Shown: positions 1 to 6,066, counted from the first letter of the stretch. The stretch is 64,000 nucleotides of DNA from Candidatus Marinacidobacterales bacterium (GCA_965226495.1 OZ245365.1:3744001-3808000), one strand, 5' to 3'. The notes: a model not told the origin generated them from the letters alone. A program made the numbers and translations.

Positions 1-2
1 AC

Positions 3-1073
3 GTCGGGGCGAAGCTCGACTTCGTCGAAAAGAATCGGCAGGAGCAGACCCAGATTCGCGAAGACTACGAAGGTGGTCTAACTCGGGAGCTCATTCCTTA
101 CGAGGAGGCCCGACGCAGGCGCGTCGAGATCGACCCTCATCCAGCGCTGGTTGCGAAACCCGAGTTCCTGGGGGTCAGAGCACTCGACGACATTCCGCTC
201 GGCGAGATCGTCCCCTACATCGACTGGACGCCCTTCTTCCATACCTGGGAATTCCGTGGCGTCTTCCCCGCCATTCTGGAGAAACCCGACATAGGAGAGG
301 CGGCTCGGGAGCTCTACGAGAACGCACTGAGCCTAATGAACGATATCGTCGATAAGAAACTCCTACGAGCGCGTGCCGTCTACGGATTTTTTCCCGCCAA
401 TTCCGAAGGTGACGACGTCATCATCTATAAGGACGATTCTCGGGAAGAAGAACGCGTTCGAGTCCACACCTTGCGGCAACAACAGGCCAAGCGGGACGGC
501 CAAGGCTACCTGGCACTCGCGGACTTCGTGGCGCCGGTTGGGTCGGGATTGAACGACCACATCGGTGCCTTTGCAGTGACCGCGGGGCACGGAGTCGAGG
601 AACTCGTGTCCCGGTTCGAAAAGGATCACGACGACTACAACGCCATCATGGCTAAGGCCCTCGCCGATCGCCTGGCCGAGGCCTTGGCGGAAAAACTCCA
701 CGAGGAGGCTCGCAGCGAGTCGGGATTTGGTAAAGACGAGCGCCTCCACAAAGAGGACCTCATTCGCGAACGCTATCGGGGCATTCGTCCCGCCCCCGGC
801 TACCCCGCATCGCCAGACCATACCGAAAAGGCGACGCTCTTTCGGTTGTTGGATGCAGAAAAGAATACTTGTATTTCTTTGACCGAGACCTTTGCGATGC
901 TTCCCGCCGCCTCGGTGAGCGGCTTCTACTTCAATCACCCGGAGGCGCGGTACTTCAGCGTGGGAAAGATTGGCGAAGACCAGGTCGCCGACTACGCCCG
1001 GCGAAAGTCCCTGACCCAGGTCGAGGTCGAGAGATGGCTAGGGCCTTATCTTGGCTACCAACCCAAGGCCTAA
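3..1073 (+). CDS. metH: B12-dependent methionine synthase, C-terminal activation domain (partial, starts before the window)
   Basis: Frame is open from the window start. Motifs YIDWTPFF, YGFFPANS, LADRLAEA, YRGIRPAPGYP and AASVSG match the MetH AdoMet-binding domain. Confidence 0.95.
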   Translation, partial: VGAKLDFVEKNRQEQTQIREDYEGGLTRELIPYEEARRRRVEIDPHPALVAKPEFLGVRALDDIPLGEIVPYIDWTPFFHTWEFRGVFPAILEKPDIGEAARELYENALSLMNDIVDKKLLRARAVYGFFPANSEGDDVIIYKDDSREEERVRVHTLRQQQAKRDGQGYLALADFVAPVGSGLNDHIGAFAVTAGHGVEELVSRFEKDHDDYNAIMAKALADRLAEALAEKLHEEARSESGFGKDERLHKEDLIRERYRGIRPAPGYPASPDHTEKATLFRLLDAEKNTCISLTETFAMLPAASVSGFYFNHPEARYFSVGKIGEDQVADYARRKSLTQVEVERWLGPYLGYQPKA

Positions 1074-1666
1074 CTCAGAAACGTGAAGTACCTCCAAGTT
1101 CCCATGAAGGCCTTGCTGACGTTGCAGGTGCCTTGCCCGGCGGTGTGCTGAAGCTCTTCGAGAAGGTGGCCGCCCATTCGCACATGGTTGAGCGACATCC
1201 ATCGAGCGAAACCCGCGAACGGCGAATCGTGGAAATCCACGGCGGCCAAGATCCCTCCTCTTCGCAGTCGCGACAGCGCCGCCTCAATCGCCACTTTCCA
1301 TCCCGGGTTGGTCATTGACAGCGAATAGCTGAATAACACGAGGTCGAAGGGCTCCGACTCCGCGGGCACTCCCGGAAACTCGCCCTGCAAGAGACCCATT
1401 CGATCTGACCATCGGTTGAGCTTCCTTTCCGCCTTAGACAGCATATCGGGCGAGAGATCGACGCCGGTCAGGCTCGCCGACGGAAAAAGCTCGGCAAGCC
1501 TTCGCAAGTTCCTTCCGGTCCCGCACCCGACCTCGAGGACGCGCCGTGGAGTGAGGCGATCGGCGACTTGCCGCAAGAGCTCCTCCCGGCCGAAAAGGAA
1601 GGCCCAGCGCGTCGCATCGTAGAAGCGAGCGTGCAACCGGTAATAGCTCTCTACGCGATCCACCAT
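1070..1666 (-). CDS. Class I SAM-dependent methyltransferase, BtaB-like (betaine lipid N-methyltransferase family)
   Basis: YYRLHARFYDATRWAFLFGR N-terminus, VLEVGCGTGRN SAM motif and FSYSLSM resemble BtaB. Confidence 0.75.
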   Translation of the reverse strand: MVDRVESYYRLHARFYDATRWAFLFGREELLRQVADRLTPRRVLEVGCGTGRNLRRLAELFPSASLTGVDLSPDMLSKAERKLNRWSDRMGLLQGEFPGVPAESEPFDLVLFSYSLSMTNPGWKVAIEAALSRLRRGGILAAVDFHDSPFAGFARWMSLNHVRMGGHLLEELQHTAGQGTCNVSKAFMGTWRYFTFLS

Positions 1667-1778
1667 GAAGTCTCACTGTCCGAACGAGTTGACGAGCCCC
1701 AACCCCGCGAAGATAGGAAGACAGATTGTAGCCGACAGACGGCGGGCCGGAACATCGATCACCCTCTGGGGGCCCCTC

Positions 1779-1836
1779 CCACTAGATGTGGGGCCCAAGG
1801 CGCTTGACAGGGGCCGAATATACCTATATATAGTGT
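1779..1836 (+). promoter_or_regulatory. Tandem NrdR-box-like sites overlapping a sigma70 promoter
   Basis: ccaCtAgATgTgGggc (1779-1794) and tacCtAtATaTaGtgt (1821-1836) match acaCwAtATaTwGtgt and start 42 bp apart. TTGACA at 1804-1809 has a TATATA/TATAGT -10 inside box 2. Confidence 0.7.
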
Positions 1837-1933
1837 AGGTACCCCCGAGAGAACTTGATTGGCGCATAGGTCTACGAACCGTAGACTCTATCAAGGCTGG
1901 GCGCTTCATTGGCCCATATTTGGAGGGTTCTAA

Positions 1934-2131
1934 ATGGCAAAGCGGAGAAAGAAAAAGGCTGGCGGTTCCGCCGCAGCGATCAAGAAGGTTAGGACGACTG
2001 CCAAGCGACTCGCCAATAAGGCAAGGGCGAAAATTCGCAAACAGCAGAGAGAGATCGCACGGTTGAAGAAGCAGAACGCACGCCTCAAGAAAGCGGCCAA
2101 GAAAAAGGCCTCGAGACGCCGCAAGAAGTAG
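1934..2131 (+). CDS. Small Lys/Arg-rich histone-like or protamine-like protein (65 aa)
   Basis: GGAGGG RBS at 1922-1927, upstream promoter and downstream terminator. 31 of 65 residues are K/R and only one is acidic. Confidence 0.8.
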   Translation: MAKRRKKKAGGSAAAIKKVRTTAKRLANKARAKIRKQQREIARLKKQNARLKKAAKKKASRRRKK

Positions 2132-2150
2132 CTCTTCGCGGTAACCACTA

Positions 2151-2211
2151 GCCGGCCCCCCCCGATCGCCGGCACCATCCGGTGATCGGGGGTCCCGGTT
2201 TCCTTTTTTTT
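2151..2211 (+). terminator. Intrinsic terminator
   Basis: Stem cccccgatcgccgg / ccggtgatcggggg followed by a T8 tract at 2204-2211. Confidence 0.8.
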
Positions 2212-2248
2212 CCTGGATTCGGCAACTTTTTCTTATAGTCTCATCTTC

Positions 2249-3650
2249 ATGTCTGGCCCCAACCTGTCCTTCCACGGTGGCGCTGGGACGGTCACCGGGC
2301 TCCCGTCATCTTCTAAGCGTTTCCGGACTCCAACTCTTGGTCGATGCCGGCTTGTTCCAGGGGTTGAAGAAGTTGCGGCTTCTCAACTGGCAGGAGCCCG
2401 ACTTCGATCCTCGGTCGGTCGATCCTCTATTCCTCACCCACGCGCACATCGATCATAGCGGCTACCTTCCCCGACTCGTGCGCCAGGGTTACTCCAACCC
2501 GGTTTATTGCACCCCGGCGACTATGGATCTGGTGAGGCTCCTCCTATTGGACTCCGCGAAGATTCAAGAAGAAGACGCGAACTACGCCAACCGAAAAGGA
2601 TTCAGCAAACACCGACCGGCCCTGCCGCTTTACACCAGCGCGGACGCGGAGGCCGCCTTCGAGTTGATGAGACCGCTGCCCTACGGCGAATGGCTCGAGG
2701 TCCGAGAAGGGGTTCGTGCTCGGTTCCTCAATGTGGGCCACATACTGGGCTCGGCGATGGTCGAAGTACGCATGCCCATCGGGAAAAAGGAACAGGGCAT
2801 CGTGTTCAGCGGCGACGTCGGACGATACGATGTGCCATTGCATTCCGACCCCTCGGAACCTCCAGCCAGCAACCTGCTGGTCGTCGAATCGACATACGGG
2901 AATCGCACTCACGATGCCAAACCGATCGCGGAGCAGATCACCGAGCCCTTCAAAGAAGTCTTCGCGCGAGGAGGAATCGTGTTGATCCCTTCTTTCGCGG
3001 TGGGCAGGGCTCAGCTTGTCACTCTCATCTTGCGCGAGCTGATGAACGAGGGTCGTCTTCCAGAGGTGCCTATCCATATCGATAGCCCGATGGCGGTCAA
3101 TGCTACCCGCATCTACAGTAAGCATCTCGACGACGGAAGTCTCGATGACGAGTTGTCGGAAGATGGGGGAAGCCGTCTCTTCCCTCGAAACGTGGAGTTC
3201 CACCGCACGGTCGACGAATCGAAGGAACTCAACAAACTGTCCGGCCCTCGCATCATCATCTCCGCGAGCGGCATGCTGACCGCCGGCCGCGTCCTTCATC
3301 ATTTGCGCCGACTATTGCCGGACAAGCAGAACCTCATCTTGCTGGTTGGCTATCAGGCGGCGGGGACACGCGGTCGGGCGCTACTCGAAGGTGCTAAGAC
3401 GCTACGGATGCACGGACGGCAGGTCCCGGTTCGCGCGAAATTCCGTTCGGTACACGGCCTGTCAGCACACGCCGACCAAGAGGAGCTCATTCGATGGATT
3501 GGCTCCTCGAAGTCTCCTCCCAAGACCGTTTTCGTGACTCATGGTGAGCCAAAAGCATCCAAGGCTCTCGCCGAACGAATAGAAAAAGAGTTCGGCTCCC
3601 GCTGCTTCGTACCTCGATTGCAAGATCGCTTCGACCTCGCAACACTCTAG
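2249..3650 (+). CDS. MBL-fold beta-CASP ribonuclease (TTHA0252/Ysh1-like); +1 frameshift near 2297-2299
   Basis: N-terminus LSFHGGAGTVTG is in one frame. SRHLL...VDAGLFQG, THAHIDHSG, GHILGSA, FSGDVG, ESTYG, SAHAD and VTHGE are in the next. Confidence 0.85.
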
Positions 3651-3812
3651 ACCGACTACCCGCGGCATCGCTTCTAGAAACGGAGAACTACCACGCTTTT
3701 CTTGACTTCCGTTCGGCTCGCGTTGAGCTTCGCGGAGTGCGGAAACACAAAAGACTTCATATTGTCGAATGGCGCGGAAGGCCTTATCTAGATCGTCAGC
3801 CGGCCCCCTGGA

Positions 3813-3847
3813 TTGACTTGGCGCGGTGTTGCGCATACAGTATGCGC
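3813..3847 (+). promoter_or_regulatory. Sigma70 promoter with overlapping palindromic operator (putative GntR site)
   Basis: TTGACT (3813-3818), 17 bp, TACAGT (3836-3841). Perfect palindrome GCGCATAC-A-GTATGCGC at 3831-3847. Confidence 0.7.
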
Positions 3848-3864
3848 CAAAGAGCACAGCGTTC

Positions 3865-4701
3865 ATGCACATAAGCCCATCAAAATGTGTTGCTTGCGGT
3901 AATTGCGTCGCGATCTGCCCTATGGAGGCCATCGCGATCAACCCGATATCGAACCGCGCGGAGATCGATCAGGCCAACTGCGTCGAGTGTTATCAGTGCT
4001 TTCGCGGAATGAGCCAAGAGCACCTAAACCCAACCGTGGTGCGTTCGCTGCGAAAAGTCTTGGGCTGGATGCGTCTTCGTTTCGAGCCCGAGCCGGACGT
4101 CTGCCCGACCGCCGCGTTCGAGCCCGATGAGCTGTCCTGGCCCCGGGTCGTTAGACGAGCCTTCTCCGACGTTACTGCTACGCACGAGAGCACCGGCATC
4201 CACGGCCGAGGCACCGAGGAAGTCAAAACTAACGATGTGACCCGGCGCGTTCAGAACGGCGAGGCGGGCTTCGTCGTCGAGTTCGGTCGCCCGAGTATCG
4301 GGGTGTGGTTCAAGGATATCTATCGCATGACGACTCGACTCGCCGAAGCGGGTGCGGAGTTCGAGCCCAACAATCCGGTGACGCACTTGATGACGGACCC
4401 TGCGCGGGGCCGGATTAAAGAAGATGTTCTCGGCGAGAAGGTCTTATCCGCGATCGTCGAGTTTAAGATACCCCTAGGTCGGGTCGATGAAATGCTCGAC
4501 GTCATCGAGACGACGGCACCGACCCTCGATACAGTGGTCTCCTTAGGAATCGGTGCCGTTTGCGATTCAGACGGGTCCAACCCCGTCCCGGAGATCATGT
4601 CGCGCCGTGGCTACTCGGTTGTCCGCGGGAAAACCAACCTTGGCCTGGGGCGGGCCACCAATCAGGAAACGGCCGAAACAGAGCTCGAGGTGACGCGGTG
4701 A
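3865..4701 (+). CDS. Uncharacterised 2x[4Fe-4S] ferredoxin-domain protein
   Basis: CVACGNCVAICP and CVECYQC...(insert)...VCP motifs, followed by an unassigned domain of about 190 aa containing GRGTEEVKTNDVT. Confidence 0.85.
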   Translation: MHISPSKCVACGNCVAICPMEAIAINPISNRAEIDQANCVECYQCFRGMSQEHLNPTVVRSLRKVLGWMRLRFEPEPDVCPTAAFEPDELSWPRVVRRAFSDVTATHESTGIHGRGTEEVKTNDVTRRVQNGEAGFVVEFGRPSIGVWFKDIYRMTTRLAEAGAEFEPNNPVTHLMTDPARGRIKEDVLGEKVLSAIVEFKIPLGRVDEMLDVIETTAPTLDTVVSLGIGAVCDSDGSNPVPEIMSRRGYSVVRGKTNLGLGRATNQETAETELEVTR

Positions 4702-5375
4702 CCAATACACTTCACCGTTCCGGTCAACCCGACGATCTCAAGGACGATTACATTCTGTTCGCCATGTGCACGCGGGGAAAGAACGATGTGGGAGCACCGG
4801 AACGCCTCCGAGAGTTTCTGAGAATCTGCGCTCGGCACAACCCCATCAACATGGGTGATGGAAGAGACGGAGGCATCCACCGTCCGTCTCGAAGTCTGAA
4901 TCCGCTTGTCCACTGGCGTCGTCCCGAAAACGGTTCGATGGAAGACGTCATCGAAGGGATCACCGCGCCCACCACTGCCGCGGCGGTCTTCGACAACCCC
5001 GACTCGCTTCGCGAGTGTCTCCAAGAGGTCAAAGCTGCCGACCTGGGACTCTCGATCAACATCTCCGCGCTGACGGAAGACGCGAGGCAGTGTAGCGAGC
5101 AAGCGGGGATCGATCGACACGCTGTCGAGTACTCGCTCGGGTTCTTGGGGAAAACGAGCAAGCTACCGGAATCGAACGTTCTCTCTCTCATCACGATGTG
5201 CGGCCACGGGATGGTCTCTAGTGCGTTCGCTCAGAAGATGATCGACTGGGTCAAAACCGATCGCAAGACTCCTGCCGAATGCGCCCGCTACATGACACGT
5301 TTCTGTGTATGTGGTGTTTTCAACCCCGTACGAGCGGAGCGGCTACTCCGTCAAAGGTCTAACAATGCCGGCTAA
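4698..5375 (+). CDS. Conserved-looking hypothetical protein with MCGHG and CxCGxFNP motifs
   Basis: GTGA start/stop overlap with the upstream gene and a GAGG RBS. Begins MTNTLHR and has clustered C-terminal Cys/His. Confidence 0.8.
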   Translation: MTNTLHRSGQPDDLKDDYILFAMCTRGKNDVGAPERLREFLRICARHNPINMGDGRDGGIHRPSRSLNPLVHWRRPENGSMEDVIEGITAPTTAAAVFDNPDSLRECLQEVKAADLGLSINISALTEDARQCSEQAGIDRHAVEYSLGFLGKTSKLPESNVLSLITMCGHGMVSSAFAQKMIDWVKTDRKTPAECARYMTRFCVCGVFNPVRAERLLRQRSNNAG

Positions 5376-6066
5376 CAGGCTCAAGGGCAAGAGGTTGGAA
5401 AGACATACTCTCGCCGATCAGGCCTACGCTTCCCTCAAGAAGGCGATGCTGGAGGGAGATCTTCGCCCCGGCGAACGCTTGAAGGAGCTCGAGATCGCAA
5501 AATCACTCGGAGCAAGCCGCACCCCGGTCCGGGAAGCGTTGTCGAGGCTGGAACAAGAGGGCCTCGTCCAACCCTTTCCGTCAGGAGGGCTGACCGTCGT
5601 CGAGCTATCGCCGGACGACATCGAGCAAATCTTCGGTCTCTTGAAGGTCGTGGAGCCCTATGCGTGCAAGCTCGCCCTGGAGAACATCACGGAAAAACAA
5701 CTCGAGAAGATCGAGTCGATTTGTGCGCGTGCCGAAGGGCTTACGGAGGACAACGAGCGCCGCATCGAATTGAACCGACGCTTTCATGAGGTGCTGATTG
5801 AAGTGACGGGACACCTACGACTCATCGAGCTCGTCTCCAACGTACGCTCGGCGATGCAACCCTATCGCGTCATCACCATGAACTCGCCCGAGTTCCAATC
5901 CTCGCCCGAATTTCTGACCCTAATGGTGCGAGACCACACTCAGATCGCCCAGGCGTTGAGAGCGCGCGACGAGGAGCGGCTCGTTAGGCTGGTCCACGCG
6001 CACGACGAAGTGGCAAAACGCAGCTTGATCGATTTTACTTGGGGGAAGGGTAAAGAACAATCTTAG
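5365..6066 (+). CDS. GntR family (FCD) transcriptional regulator
   Basis: wHTH LRPGERLKE...LGASRTPVREALSRLEQEGLV, and FCD motifs NRRFH and DH..I..AL. Confidence 0.93.
   Translation: MPANRLKGKRLERHTLADQAYASLKKAMLEGDLRPGERLKELEIAKSLGASRTPVREALSRLEQEGLVQPFPSGGLTVVELSPDDIEQIFGLLKVVEPYACKLALENITEKQLEKIESICARAEGLTEDNERRIELNRRFHEVLIEVTGHLRLIELVSNVRSAMQPYRVITMNSPEFQSSPEFLTLMVRDHTQIAQALRARDEERLVRLVHAHDEVAKRSLIDFTWGKGKEQS

What the first reader, a model, noticed from the sequence alone, without database searches (positions are those of the whole stretch)
1779..2211. Candidate NrdR-regulated histone-like protein that may couple chromatin protein supply to dNTP status
Seen: a self-contained unit of TTGACA promoter, leader, GGAGGG RBS, 65-aa ORF and strong terminator. 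Two 16-bp sites keep all six strongly conserved NrdR-box positions (C.A.AT.T.G) and start 42 bp apart; the second (tacCTATATATAGtgt) covers the -10. Known: NrdR is the ATP/dATP-sensing repressor of ribonucleotide reductase genes. It binds tandem boxes spaced by whole helical turns (about 21, 31-32 or 41-42 bp) and occasionally precedes replication genes. No reductase gene is adjacent here. Inference: a very basic nucleoid protein may be co-regulated with dNTP synthesis, loosely like S-phase histone expression. I know of no described case.
Basis: partly seen in the sequence, partly recalled or inferred. Interest (0 to 1): 0.78.

Follow-up and report, generated by a model that had tools for sequence, protein, structure and literature searches.

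The report
NrdR-type operator on tiny basic-protein gene
A small, self-contained gene for a very basic 65-residue helical protein in a marine acidobacterium carries what looks like a genuine two-box binding site for NrdR, the repressor that normally controls only DNA-precursor synthesis, so this orphan protein is probably switched on together with dNTP production.

Summary
Window 1779-2211 is a monocistronic unit: NrdR-like box 1 (1779-1794), TTGACA (1804-1809), box 2 over the -10 (1821-1836), a ~95-nt leader, GGAGGG, a 65-aa ORF (1934-2131) and a strong terminator (2150-2211). The genome has nrdR. I trained a weight matrix on 24 distinct paired sites upstream of the reductase gene, drawn from the 30 loci fetched for the genome and its relatives. 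By this matrix the pair is the third best tandem pair in the 6.3-Mb genome, after the reductase gene and an hpt-like gene. The 26-bp spacer is a documented NrdR geometry. Both boxes and the -35 are conserved islands in two genera, while flanking DNA is not. Metatranscriptome contigs cover only leader plus ORF. The protein occurs in 4 of 55 genomes of the order and belongs to no Pfam or NCBIfam family. It is 48% Lys/Arg and is predicted to be one long helix forming a parallel dimer. "NrdR-regulated" is well supported in silico (about 0.7). "Histone-like" rests on composition only. Paired, phased NrdR boxes on non-reductase genes are reported absent in E. coli and P. aeruginosa, so this family's enlarged regulon is moderately novel. 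It includes hpt, a FadL-type porin and this gene.

The parts
1779..1794 (.). NrdR-type box 1 (distal), ending 9 bp upstream of the -35
   Evidence: One search gives the sequence. It scores 15.2 bits, rank 24 in the genome. C4, A6, A8, T9, T11 and G13 are invariant in 4 of 4 genomes; variation occurs only at positions 1, 10, 12 and 14. The site marks the 5' edge of conservation: 13/16 identical to the other genus against 81/150 further upstream.
1804..1809 (+). -35 hexamer TTGACA, inside the 26-bp spacer between the boxes
   Evidence: Invariant in 4 of 4 genomes. The rest of the spacer is only 10/20 identical between genera.
1821..1836 (.). NrdR-type box 2 (proximal), overlapping the -10 (TATATA 1827-1832 or TATAGT 1829-1834)
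   Evidence: It scores 10.6 bits, rank 163. C4, A6, A8, T11 and G13 are kept in 4 of 4 genomes; T9 is C in G002 and G in G001. It is 14 of 16 identical to the E. coli nrdAB box 1 as printed in Table 5 of PMC13584703.
1840..1933 (+). 5' leader (~95 nt) with GGAGGG (1922-1927). A possible helix pairs the leader's 5' ACCCCC with the Shine-Dalgarno sequence.
   Evidence: 80/95 identical between genera, more than the coding sequence at 149/193. The fold appears but is not better than shuffles (z -1.3 and -0.2) and shows no compensatory pairs. No Rfam match. RNA contigs begin at 1853-1856 in 3 runs.
1934..2131 (+). ORF of 65 aa: 19 Lys, 12 Arg, 1 acidic residue, no aromatics, 7.5 kDa
   Evidence: Orthologues of 64-66 aa have in-frame length differences. 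Against the other genus, 15 codon differences are synonymous and 18 non-synonymous over 58 codons. The model is a single helix, residues 10-64, pLDDT 87.7. A parallel dimer model scores 0.42 against a best control of 0.00.
2150..2211 (+). Intrinsic terminator: GC-rich hairpin followed by a T-run
   Evidence: -39.2 kcal/mol, z -4.8.

Best explanation
This is a monocistronic gene whose promoter carries a long-spacer NrdR operator. When NrdR is loaded with ATP plus dATP, a tetramer binds box 1 (just upstream of the -35) and box 2 (over the -10). The boxes are four helical turns apart, so the -35 lies inside the complex, RNA polymerase is excluded and the gene is off. When dATP falls relative to ATP, NrdR leaves the DNA and the gene is transcribed together with the ribonucleotide reductase gene and an hpt-like salvage gene.

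The product is a lineage-restricted, extremely basic single-helix protein that probably forms a parallel coiled-coil dimer and binds nucleic acid. My committed guess is DNA: extra coating or bridging capacity when replication demands precursors.

Shown in silico: the operator's sequence, spacing, genome-wide rarity and conservation; the presence of an E. coli-like NrdR; and transcription of the unit in nature.

Inferred: NrdR actually binds here; the sign of regulation; dimerisation; and the nucleic-acid target.
For: 1. nrdR is present and scores above the curated cut-off (193.9 bits against 124.65). Its product aligns gap-free over residues 1-149 with E. coli NrdR chains and has Asp15 and Arg17.

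2. In the 30 fetched loci (the genome itself and 29 relatives), the reductase gene carries tandem core boxes 31-32 bp apart in all f1/f2 loci with enough upstream DNA. A matrix built from the 24 distinct paired sites ranks this pair third in the genome. Only 4 pairs have both sites at 10 bits or more at spacings of 16-69 bp, against about 0.008 expected per spacing.

3. The spacer is 26 bp. Spacers of 25-26 bp are native in most streptococci. E. coli NrdR binds a 26-bp spacer with KD 24 nM, better than its 45-91 nM at 15-18 bp (PMC12051234 abstract, section 2.5 and passages).

4. Phylogenetic footprint. In G000, G001, G002 and G006, 46 of 48 core positions are kept and the -35 is invariant. 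Between genera, box 1 is 13/16 identical, box 2 14/16, the rest of the spacer 10/20 and DNA upstream of box 1 81/150. Four metagenome contigs of the G006 lineage keep both boxes at -155 and -113 from the ATG.

5. The two deviations, at T9 of box 2, are tolerable. A8/T9 are 'not absolutely critical', and E. coli nrdAB box 2 naturally has a middle AG (PMC13584703 sections 8 and 10). Reductase-gene distal boxes in family f3 of this same order have CC, CG or GG in the middle.

6. Gene and boxes travel together. Three family members that lack the ORF (G003, G004, G005) have no site of 9 bits or more and no basic ORF upstream of the syntenic beta-CASP gene.

7. Other non-reductase genes in this family carry conserved paired boxes. 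These are hpt in G000, G002, G004 and G005, and a FadL-type porin in G000, G001 and G002. An enlarged regulon is therefore plausible here.

8. RNA-library contigs from two studies cover 1853-2110, 1856-2099, 1856-2130 and 1911-2130 and nothing outside, while DNA runs hold the whole stretch.

9. Protein: the helix model and the homodimer model. The dimer scores 0.42 against a best control of 0.00. That mark was reached by 20 of 30 solved homomers and 1 of 23 solved monomers. Runs agree in at least 86% of contacts, and pLDDT is at least 71.
Against: - No binding or expression experiment exists.
- Box 2 is only rank 163 by the matrix, and its AT-rich palindrome coincides with the -10. Its conservation could therefore be promoter conservation.
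- T9 of box 2 is lost in 2 of 3 genomes of the window's own genus.
- All reductase-gene and hpt operators in this order use 31-32 bp spacing, never 42. S. coelicolor, L. monocytogenes and S. pneumoniae NrdRs bind 26-bp spacers 7- to 70-fold or more worse in vitro.
- The independent lineages number only two genera, and the whole box-to-ATG block is conserved (123/153).
- Box 1 has 5 of 8 A/T between C4 and G13, exactly at the 63% lower limit given in PMC13584703.
- The consensus promoter scan found no site.
- In G001 the ORF is interrupted by a transposase insertion, so the protein is dispensable at least there.
- The dimer pass may reflect likeness to GCN4-type zippers. DNA binding is pure inference.
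Confidence: 0.68

Rival explanations
1. The two 'boxes' are not NrdR sites. Box 2 is just the AT-rich -10 region of a strong promoter. Box 1 is the operator of some other regulator, or a conserved upstream promoter element, that happens to fit the loose core C.A.AT.T.G.
For: The bare core is frequent: 1242 genome hits. Box 2 ranks only 163 and overlaps the -10. T9 of box 2 varies in 2 of 4 genomes. The 42-bp spacing is not used at any reductase-gene or hpt operator in this order. A preprint reports that a comparable motif search returned more putative single boxes in random DNA than in real sequence, and its authors suspect most non-RNR boxes in E. coli and P. aeruginosa are false positives (10.1101/2025.03.28.645925, passages).
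Against: A pair with both sites at 10 bits or more at a helically phased spacing is expected about 0.04 times per genome for the five phased spacings. In box 1, only the degenerate positions vary while all six core positions are invariant. The critical C4, A6, T11 and G13 of box 2 are invariant too, whereas a -10 hexamer alone would not need C4 or G13.
Confidence: 0.2
2. NrdR does regulate the gene, but the product is not a chromatin protein. It would instead be an RNA- or ribosome-associated small basic protein (comparable in size and charge to the smallest ribosomal proteins), or a basic partner of some other polyanion.
For: There is no match to any nucleoid-protein family. The composition (48% K/R, no aromatics) is as typical of small ribosomal or RNA-binding proteins as of DNA binders. 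The neighbouring gene encodes a beta-CASP RNA-specificity metallo-hydrolase in both genera. The unit is seen as short, well-covered RNA contigs while its neighbours are not.
Against: There is no match to ribosomal-protein families either. The gene is found in only 4 of 55 genomes of the order and is interrupted in one, which is unlike a core ribosomal component. The terminator separates it from the beta-CASP gene. Control by a dNTP sensor fits a DNA-related role better.
Confidence: 0.3
3. The main control is post-transcriptional. The conserved 95-nt leader is a translational switch, either sequestering the Shine-Dalgarno sequence or being bound by the basic protein itself, and the NrdR-like boxes are incidental.
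For: The leader is the best-conserved part of the locus: 80/95 against 149/193 for the coding sequence. Both genera can pair ACCCCC with the Shine-Dalgarno region.
Against: The folds are no better than shuffles (z -1.3 and -0.2). None of the 30 predicted pairs shows a compensatory change. There is no Rfam family. A leader switch would add to promoter control by NrdR rather than exclude it.
Confidence: 0.1

Closest known systems
Paired NrdR boxes of ribonucleotide reductase operons (for example E. coli nrdAB, and S. pneumoniae nrdHEF/nrdDG with 25-26 bp spacers)
   Same: Two 16-bp partially palindromic boxes with C4, A6, A8, T9, T11 and G13. The centres lie an integer number of helical turns apart, and the operator overlaps the core promoter. 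Box 2 is 14 of 16 identical to E. coli nrdAB box 1 as printed in PMC13584703. The 26-bp spacer matches the streptococcal type.
   Different: The downstream gene is not a reductase or any nucleotide-metabolism gene. Within this order, the reductase-gene operators use the short 15-16 bp spacer.
Non-reductase genes linked to NrdR: topA in Pseudomonas aeruginosa and dnaA in Shewanella
   Same: A DNA-transaction gene placed under a dNTP-sensing regulator. A topA promoter fusion responded to nrdR deletion and to box mutation (PMC4409342, passages).
   Different: Those promoters have a single box, and NrdR appeared to activate topA. A later RNA-seq study found no topA change and states that no non-RNR gene has more than one box in E. 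coli or P. aeruginosa (10.1101/2025.03.28.645925, passages). This locus has a full phased pair placed for repression.
Small basic bacterial chromatin proteins (HU/IHF, H-NS, Lsr2, chlamydial Hc1)
   Same: Small size, very high positive charge and predicted oligomerisation.
   Different: No sequence relationship to any of them. The predicted fold is one continuous helix, unlike the HU or H-NS folds. DNA binding is not shown.
Leucine-zipper / bZIP-type parallel coiled coils (GCN4)
   Same: A predicted in-register parallel dimer over residues 15-55, with a basic sequence N-terminal to a heptad-spaced I41/L44/L51 core. The only hits in the structure databank are weak matches to GCN4 zipper constructs and a NEMO (NF-kB essential modulator) construct (E 0.0007 to 1).
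   Different: No bZIP Pfam match. Basic residues run along the whole helix and both tails. The similarity is short and compositional, not evidence of homology.

Membership tests
NrdR operator (paired NrdR boxes) | Two 16-bp boxes, each with the critical C4 and G13 | tested here: met
   Kept in both boxes in 4 of 4 genomes and in 4 of 4 related metagenome contigs. Criticality is taken from PMC13584703 section 10.
NrdR operator (paired NrdR boxes) | A6 and T11 in each box | tested here: met
   invariant in both boxes in 4 of 4 genomes.
NrdR operator (paired NrdR boxes) | AT-rich centre: middle AT preferred, and at least 63% A/T between C4 and G13 | tested here: met
   Box 1 has 5 of 8 A/T, at the limit, and 6-7 of 8 in the other three genomes. 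Box 2 has 8 of 8. The middle AT is kept except at box 2 in G002 (AC) and G001 (AG).
NrdR operator (paired NrdR boxes) | [quoted passage not shown] | tested here: met
   The spacer is 26 bp and identical in length in both genera.
NrdR operator (paired NrdR boxes) | An nrdR gene with the DNA-contacting Zn-ribbon residues in the same genome | tested here: met
   (TIGR00244, 193.9 bits). One search shows Asp15 and Arg17 present and a gap-free alignment to E. coli NrdR.
NrdR operator (paired NrdR boxes) | Scores like the genome's own reductase-gene sites | tested here: inconclusive
   Box 1 at 15.2 bits lies just under all but one of the 24 training scores (one at 8.6, the rest 15.4-20.3). Box 2 at 10.6 bits is below the main range, yet above natural distal boxes of family f3 (3.9-12.4 bits).
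NrdR operator (paired NrdR boxes) | Lies upstream of a ribonucleotide reductase operon | tested here: not met
   The only reductase large-subunit match is about 400 kb away. The neighbours here are metH, a methyltransferase and a beta-CASP hydrolase, and the other genus shows the same synteny without a reductase gene.
NrdR operator (paired NrdR boxes) | ATP/dATP-dependent binding of NrdR and repression in vivo | not testable with these tools
   Needs EMSA or MST and reporter assays.
Bacterial histone-like / nucleoid-associated protein families | Sequence membership in HU/IHF, H-NS, Lsr2, Hc1, histone-fold or similar families | tested here: not met
   A Pfam scan at E up to 0.1 gave only a noise hit, Dyp_perox_C at E 0.038, below its cut-off. 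NCBIfam gave none for 3 of 3 homologues.
Bacterial histone-like / nucleoid-associated protein families | Binds DNA with little sequence specificity and is abundant on the nucleoid | not testable with these tools
   There are only indirect hints: 31 of 65 residues are K/R, and RNA contigs are restricted to this unit.
bZIP / leucine zipper | Parallel two-stranded coiled coil | tested here: inconclusive
   The model scores 0.42 against a best control of 0.00, just at the mark, and may be a pass from memory of GCN4-like zippers.
bZIP / leucine zipper | bZIP basic-region signature or family match | tested here: not met
   No bZIP family in the Pfam scan.

The most novel reading that the evidence does not exclude
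A young, lineage-specific chromatin protein, a parallel coiled-coil dimer bristling with Lys/Arg, was born with or quickly acquired a full two-box NrdR operator. A bacterium would then tie the supply of a DNA-coating protein to its dNTP sensor. That would be a functional analogue of replication-coupled histone synthesis. It would also be the first case where NrdR's tetramer mechanism is used on a gene outside nucleotide metabolism.
Probability: 0.25. Interest if true: 0.75.

Novelty: new member of a known kind. Interest (0 to 1): 0.55.

Why it matters
NrdR is currently viewed as essentially reductase-specific. In E. coli and P. aeruginosa, only reductase operons have paired, helically phased boxes, and the few non-reductase candidates have single boxes of doubtful function.

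This acidobacterial family has conserved paired boxes on at least three non-reductase promoters: hpt, a FadL-type porin and this orphan gene. If NrdR binds them, the tetramer mechanism is not confined to reductase genes, and regulon growth can be studied in a natural case. The short-spacer (31-32 bp) and long-spacer (42 bp) operators of one genome could then be compared with a single NrdR.

The product is also a clean candidate for a new class of small basic nucleic-acid-binding protein, and it is expressed in nature.

Tried and rejected
- Rfam scan of window 1-6000 at E up to 1: only a sub-threshold snoRNA hit elsewhere and nothing in the leader.
- Leader structure: not better than shuffles and no covariation. 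Two lineages are too few for a covariance model, so none was built.
- Homologue searches. The word-indexed search gave 2 proteins. The exhaustive search gave 4, one of them a repetitive 621-aa false friend. The metagenome scan gave 4 loci of the G006 lineage plus one weak match, L045 (52% identity over 27 residues), which has no boxes. The genome scan gave G001/G002/G006 equivalents plus one weak match, L049 (41% identity), also with no boxes. I dropped both weak matches as non-homologous.
- Protein Atlas: best score 0.86, below the level that means anything.
- Phage collection: no match.
- Fold search: not run, because a single helix gives meaningless matches.
- Parts of 1500-2500 without RNA-contig cover (before 1853, after about 2130) are not evidence of silence, because contigs drop thin ends.
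- The idea that the boxes serve the divergent methyltransferase gene (1070-1666, minus strand) was rejected. That gene is absent from the locus in the other genus, which keeps the boxes.
- The idea that the boxes are relics of a lost reductase gene was rejected for the same reason.
- Literature searches for an NrdR-controlled nucleoid protein found none described among the rows shown. One search listed 15 of 211 papers, one search listed 15 of 41, and one search listed 3 of 3. I saw listings only, so this is a weak negative. Rodionov and Gelfand 2005 was not available to read and is recalled only.

Full report
**What is there.** Window 1779-2211 is a compact, self-contained transcription unit on the + strand.
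- Box 1 is CCACTAGATGTGGGGC at 1779-1794.
- A perfect TTGACA lies at 1804-1809.
- Box 2 is TACCTATATATAGTGT at 1821-1836.
- A leader of about 95 nt ends in GGAGGG (1922-1927).
- The ORF of 65 codons runs 1934-2131.
- A GC-rich hairpin with a T-run follows at 2150-2211 (-39.2 kcal/mol, z -4.8, 0 of 200 shuffles as stable).

The box starts are 42 bp apart, so the spacer is 26 bp and contains the -35. Box 2 covers the only plausible -10, which is TATATA at 17 bp or TATAGT at 19 bp. The consensus promoter scan reported no site in 1400-2600, because neither reading meets its criteria. The promoter call therefore rests on the perfect -35, its conservation and the RNA data below.

The neighbours are the 3' end of metH, a divergent SAM-methyltransferase gene (1070-1666, minus strand) and a downstream beta-CASP metallo-hydrolase gene. 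None is a reductase gene.

**Does the genome use NrdR, and what do its sites look like?** The window lies in a 6.34-Mb, 59% GC single-contig genome. Titles of near-identical public records place the group in Vicinamibacteria / 'Candidatus Marinacidobacterales'.
- nrdR is present at 193.9 bits against a cut-off of 124.65.
- Its product aligns without gaps over residues 1-149 to the E. coli NrdR crystal chains and has Asp15 and Arg17 (chain identity from PMC12176259, passages).
- The single reductase large-subunit gene lies about 400 kb away.
- Upstream of it, and of its orthologues in the 30 loci fetched, sit tandem core boxes. They are 32 bp apart in f1/f2 (one case at 31). Family f3 has one strict box plus a degenerate one at -32.

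From the 24 distinct paired sites I built a symmetrised weight matrix. The training sites were selected with the strict core, so the weight on the core positions is partly by construction.

**Is the pair more than chance?** The bare core is common: 1242 hits against about 967 expected. With the matrix, box 1 scores 15.2 bits (rank 24 of 6.3 million positions) and box 2 scores 10.6 bits (rank 163).

Only four pairs in the genome have both sites at 10 bits or more at any spacing from 16 to 69 bp, against about 0.008 expected per spacing:
- the reductase gene (32 bp, 35.3 bits summed);
- an hpt-like phosphoribosyltransferase gene (31 bp, 32.8 bits);
- this locus (42 bp, 25.8 bits);
- one pair at 47 bp.

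Three of the four sit at whole helical turns.

**Is a 26-bp spacer legitimate?** Yes, in principle.
- Spacers of 25-26 bp are the native form in most streptococci, and binding follows helical phase (PMC12051234; abstract, passages and section 2.5 read).
- Tolerance is species-specific. E. coli NrdR binds a 26-bp spacer at 24 nM, better than its 45-91 nM at 15-18 bp.
- L. monocytogenes NrdR binds its best long spacer (26 bp) 7-fold worse than its best short spacer. S. coelicolor NrdR binds its best long spacer (24 bp) 36-fold worse, with still higher KDs at 25-27 bp. S. pneumoniae NrdR binds the 26-bp spacer 70-fold worse.
- The authors link tolerance to the interdomain linker, which is three residues longer in E. 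coli than in S. coelicolor.
- This genome's NrdR matches the E. coli length exactly. It spans 152 residues where the S. coelicolor chain spans 149.

That it therefore tolerates 26 bp is my inference. Against it, every reductase-gene and hpt operator seen in this order uses 31-32 bp.

**Conservation.** The ORF occurs in 4 of 55 genomes of the order: G000, G001 and G002 in one genus and G006 in another, which is 2 of 22 genera. In public protein sets the ORF is nearly absent (2 and 4 hits). Four metagenome contigs belong to the G006 lineage.

In all four genomes the promoter aligns.
- TTGACA is invariant.
- Box 1 keeps all six core positions and varies only at positions 1, 10, 12 and 14.
- Box 2 keeps C4, A6, A8, T11 and G13, but T9 is C in G002 and G in G001.
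- Overall, 46 of 48 core cells are kept.

Between the two genera the identities are as follows.

| Region | Identical / compared |
|---|---|
| Box 1 | 13/16 |
| Box 2 | 14/16 |
| Spacer outside the -35 | 10/20 |
| DNA upstream of box 1 | 81/150 |
| Leader | 80/95 |
| Coding sequence | 149/193 |
| beta-CASP gene | 980/1369 |
| metH | 660/900 |

The boxes and the -35 are thus islands in an otherwise drifting promoter, and box 1 marks the 5' edge of conservation.

The T9 changes do not disqualify box 2.
- A mutational study concludes that C4/G13 are critical, that A6/T11 seem critical, and that A8/T9 are not, provided at least 63% A/T lies between C4 and G13.
- E. coli nrdAB box 2 naturally reads AG in the middle (PMC13584703; sections 8 and 10 read).
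- In this order, the f3 reductase-gene distal boxes have CC, CG or GG there.
- Box 2 is 14 of 16 identical to E. coli nrdAB box 1 as printed in that paper.

**Gene and operator go together.** In G003, G004 and G005, which lack the ORF, the region upstream of the syntenic beta-CASP gene has no site of 9 bits or more and no basic ORF. G007's contig is too short to judge. In the G006 lineage the methyltransferase gene is absent and metH directly precedes the unit. The boxes therefore serve the small ORF, and they are not relics of a reductase gene.

**Expression.** Fifteen coded runs of unstated library type hold all or nearly all of the sampled words of the 601-base query (window 1700-2300). In four RNA libraries from two studies, the only contigs laid on 1500-2500 are these:
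- 1853-2110, 0 differences, depth 9;
- 1856-2099, 0 differences;
- 1856-2130, 11 differences (a close relative);
- 1911-2130, 5 differences.

Contigs cannot give exact ends or strand, and DNA carry-over cannot be excluded. Still, three contigs starting at 1853-1856, about 12-15 nt after the predicted start, with none reaching the flanking genes, is a weak hint. It suggests a discrete, comparatively abundant short transcript.

**The protein.**
- It has 65 residues: 19 Lys, 12 Arg, 1 Glu, 14 Ala and no aromatics, at 7.5 kDa.
- Orthologues are 64-66 aa with in-frame differences and 20 invariant positions.
- Codon differences between genera are 15 synonymous to 18 non-synonymous over 58 codons, which is compatible with a translated, constrained ORF.
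- It matches no Pfam or NCBIfam family.
- The model is one helix, residues 10-64, mean pLDDT 87.7 from a 6-row alignment.
- A two-copy model gives an in-register parallel dimer through residues 15-55. It scores 0.42 against a best control of 0.00. That mark was reached by 20 of 30 solved homomers and 1 of 23 solved monomers. Runs agree in at least 86% of contacts, and pLDDT is at least 71. The model supports pairing but does not show it.
- The pass may come from likeness to GCN4-type zippers, which are the only weak hits in the structure databank.
- In G001 the ORF is split after about codon 12 by a 1.46-kb insertion carrying a 431-aa transposase ORF. The gene is therefore not essential there, unless this is a strain variant in the assembly.

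**Most likely mechanism.** NrdR loaded with ATP and dATP binds the two boxes as a tetramer, brackets the -35 and covers the -10, and so blocks RNA polymerase. When dATP drops, it releases. This follows established NrdR biochemistry combined with the anatomy found here. No step has been measured for this locus.

The product is probably a dimeric, highly basic helix that binds a polyanion. I favour DNA because of the regulator, but RNA or ribosome binding is a live rival. The conserved leader can pair its 5' ACCCCC with the Shine-Dalgarno sequence in both genera. That would add translational control, but the fold is statistically unremarkable.

**Comparison with what is known.** The operator meets every sequence-level criterion of a paired NrdR site except lying in front of a reductase gene.
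- Known non-reductase candidates (topA in Pseudomonas, dnaA in Shewanella) have single boxes.
- A topA fusion responded to nrdR deletion in one study (PMC4409342, passages).
- A later RNA-seq study saw no topA change. It states that in E. coli and P. aeruginosa no non-reductase gene has more than one box, and that pairs at integer turns are confined to reductase operons (10.1101/2025.03.28.645925, passages).

In this acidobacterial family, paired boxes also sit directly upstream of hpt orthologues in G000, G002, G004 and G005. They also precede a FadL-type porin gene in G000, G001 and G002. The locus is therefore best filed as a new member of the NrdR regulon kind, within a lineage whose regulon has grown.

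I found no described NrdR-controlled nucleoid protein, but I saw search listings only. I did not read the papers' supplementary box catalogues or Rodionov and Gelfand 2005, which I only recall.

**Verdict.**
- Observation: confirmed.
- NrdR control: probable, about 0.7, in silico only.
- 'Histone-like': unproven.
- Interest: moderate, 0.55.

Noticed in passing
L076 158-204 (G000:C1:1994357-1994403): A second non-reductase NrdR operator. Two boxes 31 bp apart (17.4 and 15.5 bits) straddle a TAGAAT -10, directly upstream of a phosphoribosyltransferase (hpt-like) ORF. Paired boxes also lie directly upstream of the hpt orthologues in G002, G004 and G005.
   Followed up: partly
L077 199-245 (G000:C1:3972598-3972644): Tandem core boxes 31 bp apart, the second overlapping a TTGACC, lie upstream of a FadL/TodX-type outer-membrane transport protein gene. 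The same arrangement is seen in G001 and G002 of the same genus. The second box scores under 8 bits by the matrix.
   Followed up: partly
L010 about 1710-3170 (G001:C22, between 320511 and 321970): In G001 the 65-aa ORF is interrupted after about codon 12 by a 1.46-kb insertion carrying a 431-aa transposase-like ORF on the opposite strand. The promoter, boxes and leader remain intact upstream.
   Followed up: partly
window 1840-1933: The 5' leader is the best-conserved stretch of the locus between genera (80/95). It can sequester the Shine-Dalgarno sequence with its own 5' end. It matches no Rfam family, shows no covariation, and its fold energy is unremarkable.
   Followed up: partly
L002 731-778 (G000:C1:3341400-3341447): At the genome's own reductase gene, both NrdR boxes lie upstream of a near-consensus TTGACA-N18-TATAAA promoter rather than over it. 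That is an odd position for a repressor.
   Followed up: no
L012, L014, L016, L024, L025, L038 (reductase-gene upstream regions of family f3): The distal reductase-gene boxes in family f3 have CC, CG or GG in place of the central AT while keeping C4, A6, T11 and G13. They are natural examples of the tolerance reported in the 2026 mutational study.
   Followed up: partly
G003, many places (for example G003:C2:62277-62322; L053, L061): A repeated element present in well over a dozen copies in G003 carries two NrdR-like cores 36 bp or 25 bp apart. It is probably a mobile element whose ends mimic the core, and it inflates pattern counts in that genome.
   Followed up: no
L067, L072/L075, L073/L074 (beta-CASP orthologues): The downstream beta-CASP hydrolase gene has an in-frame TAG in G001 and is split into two frames in G002 and G003. 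These are either assembly errors in the genome bins or decay of the gene.
   Followed up: no
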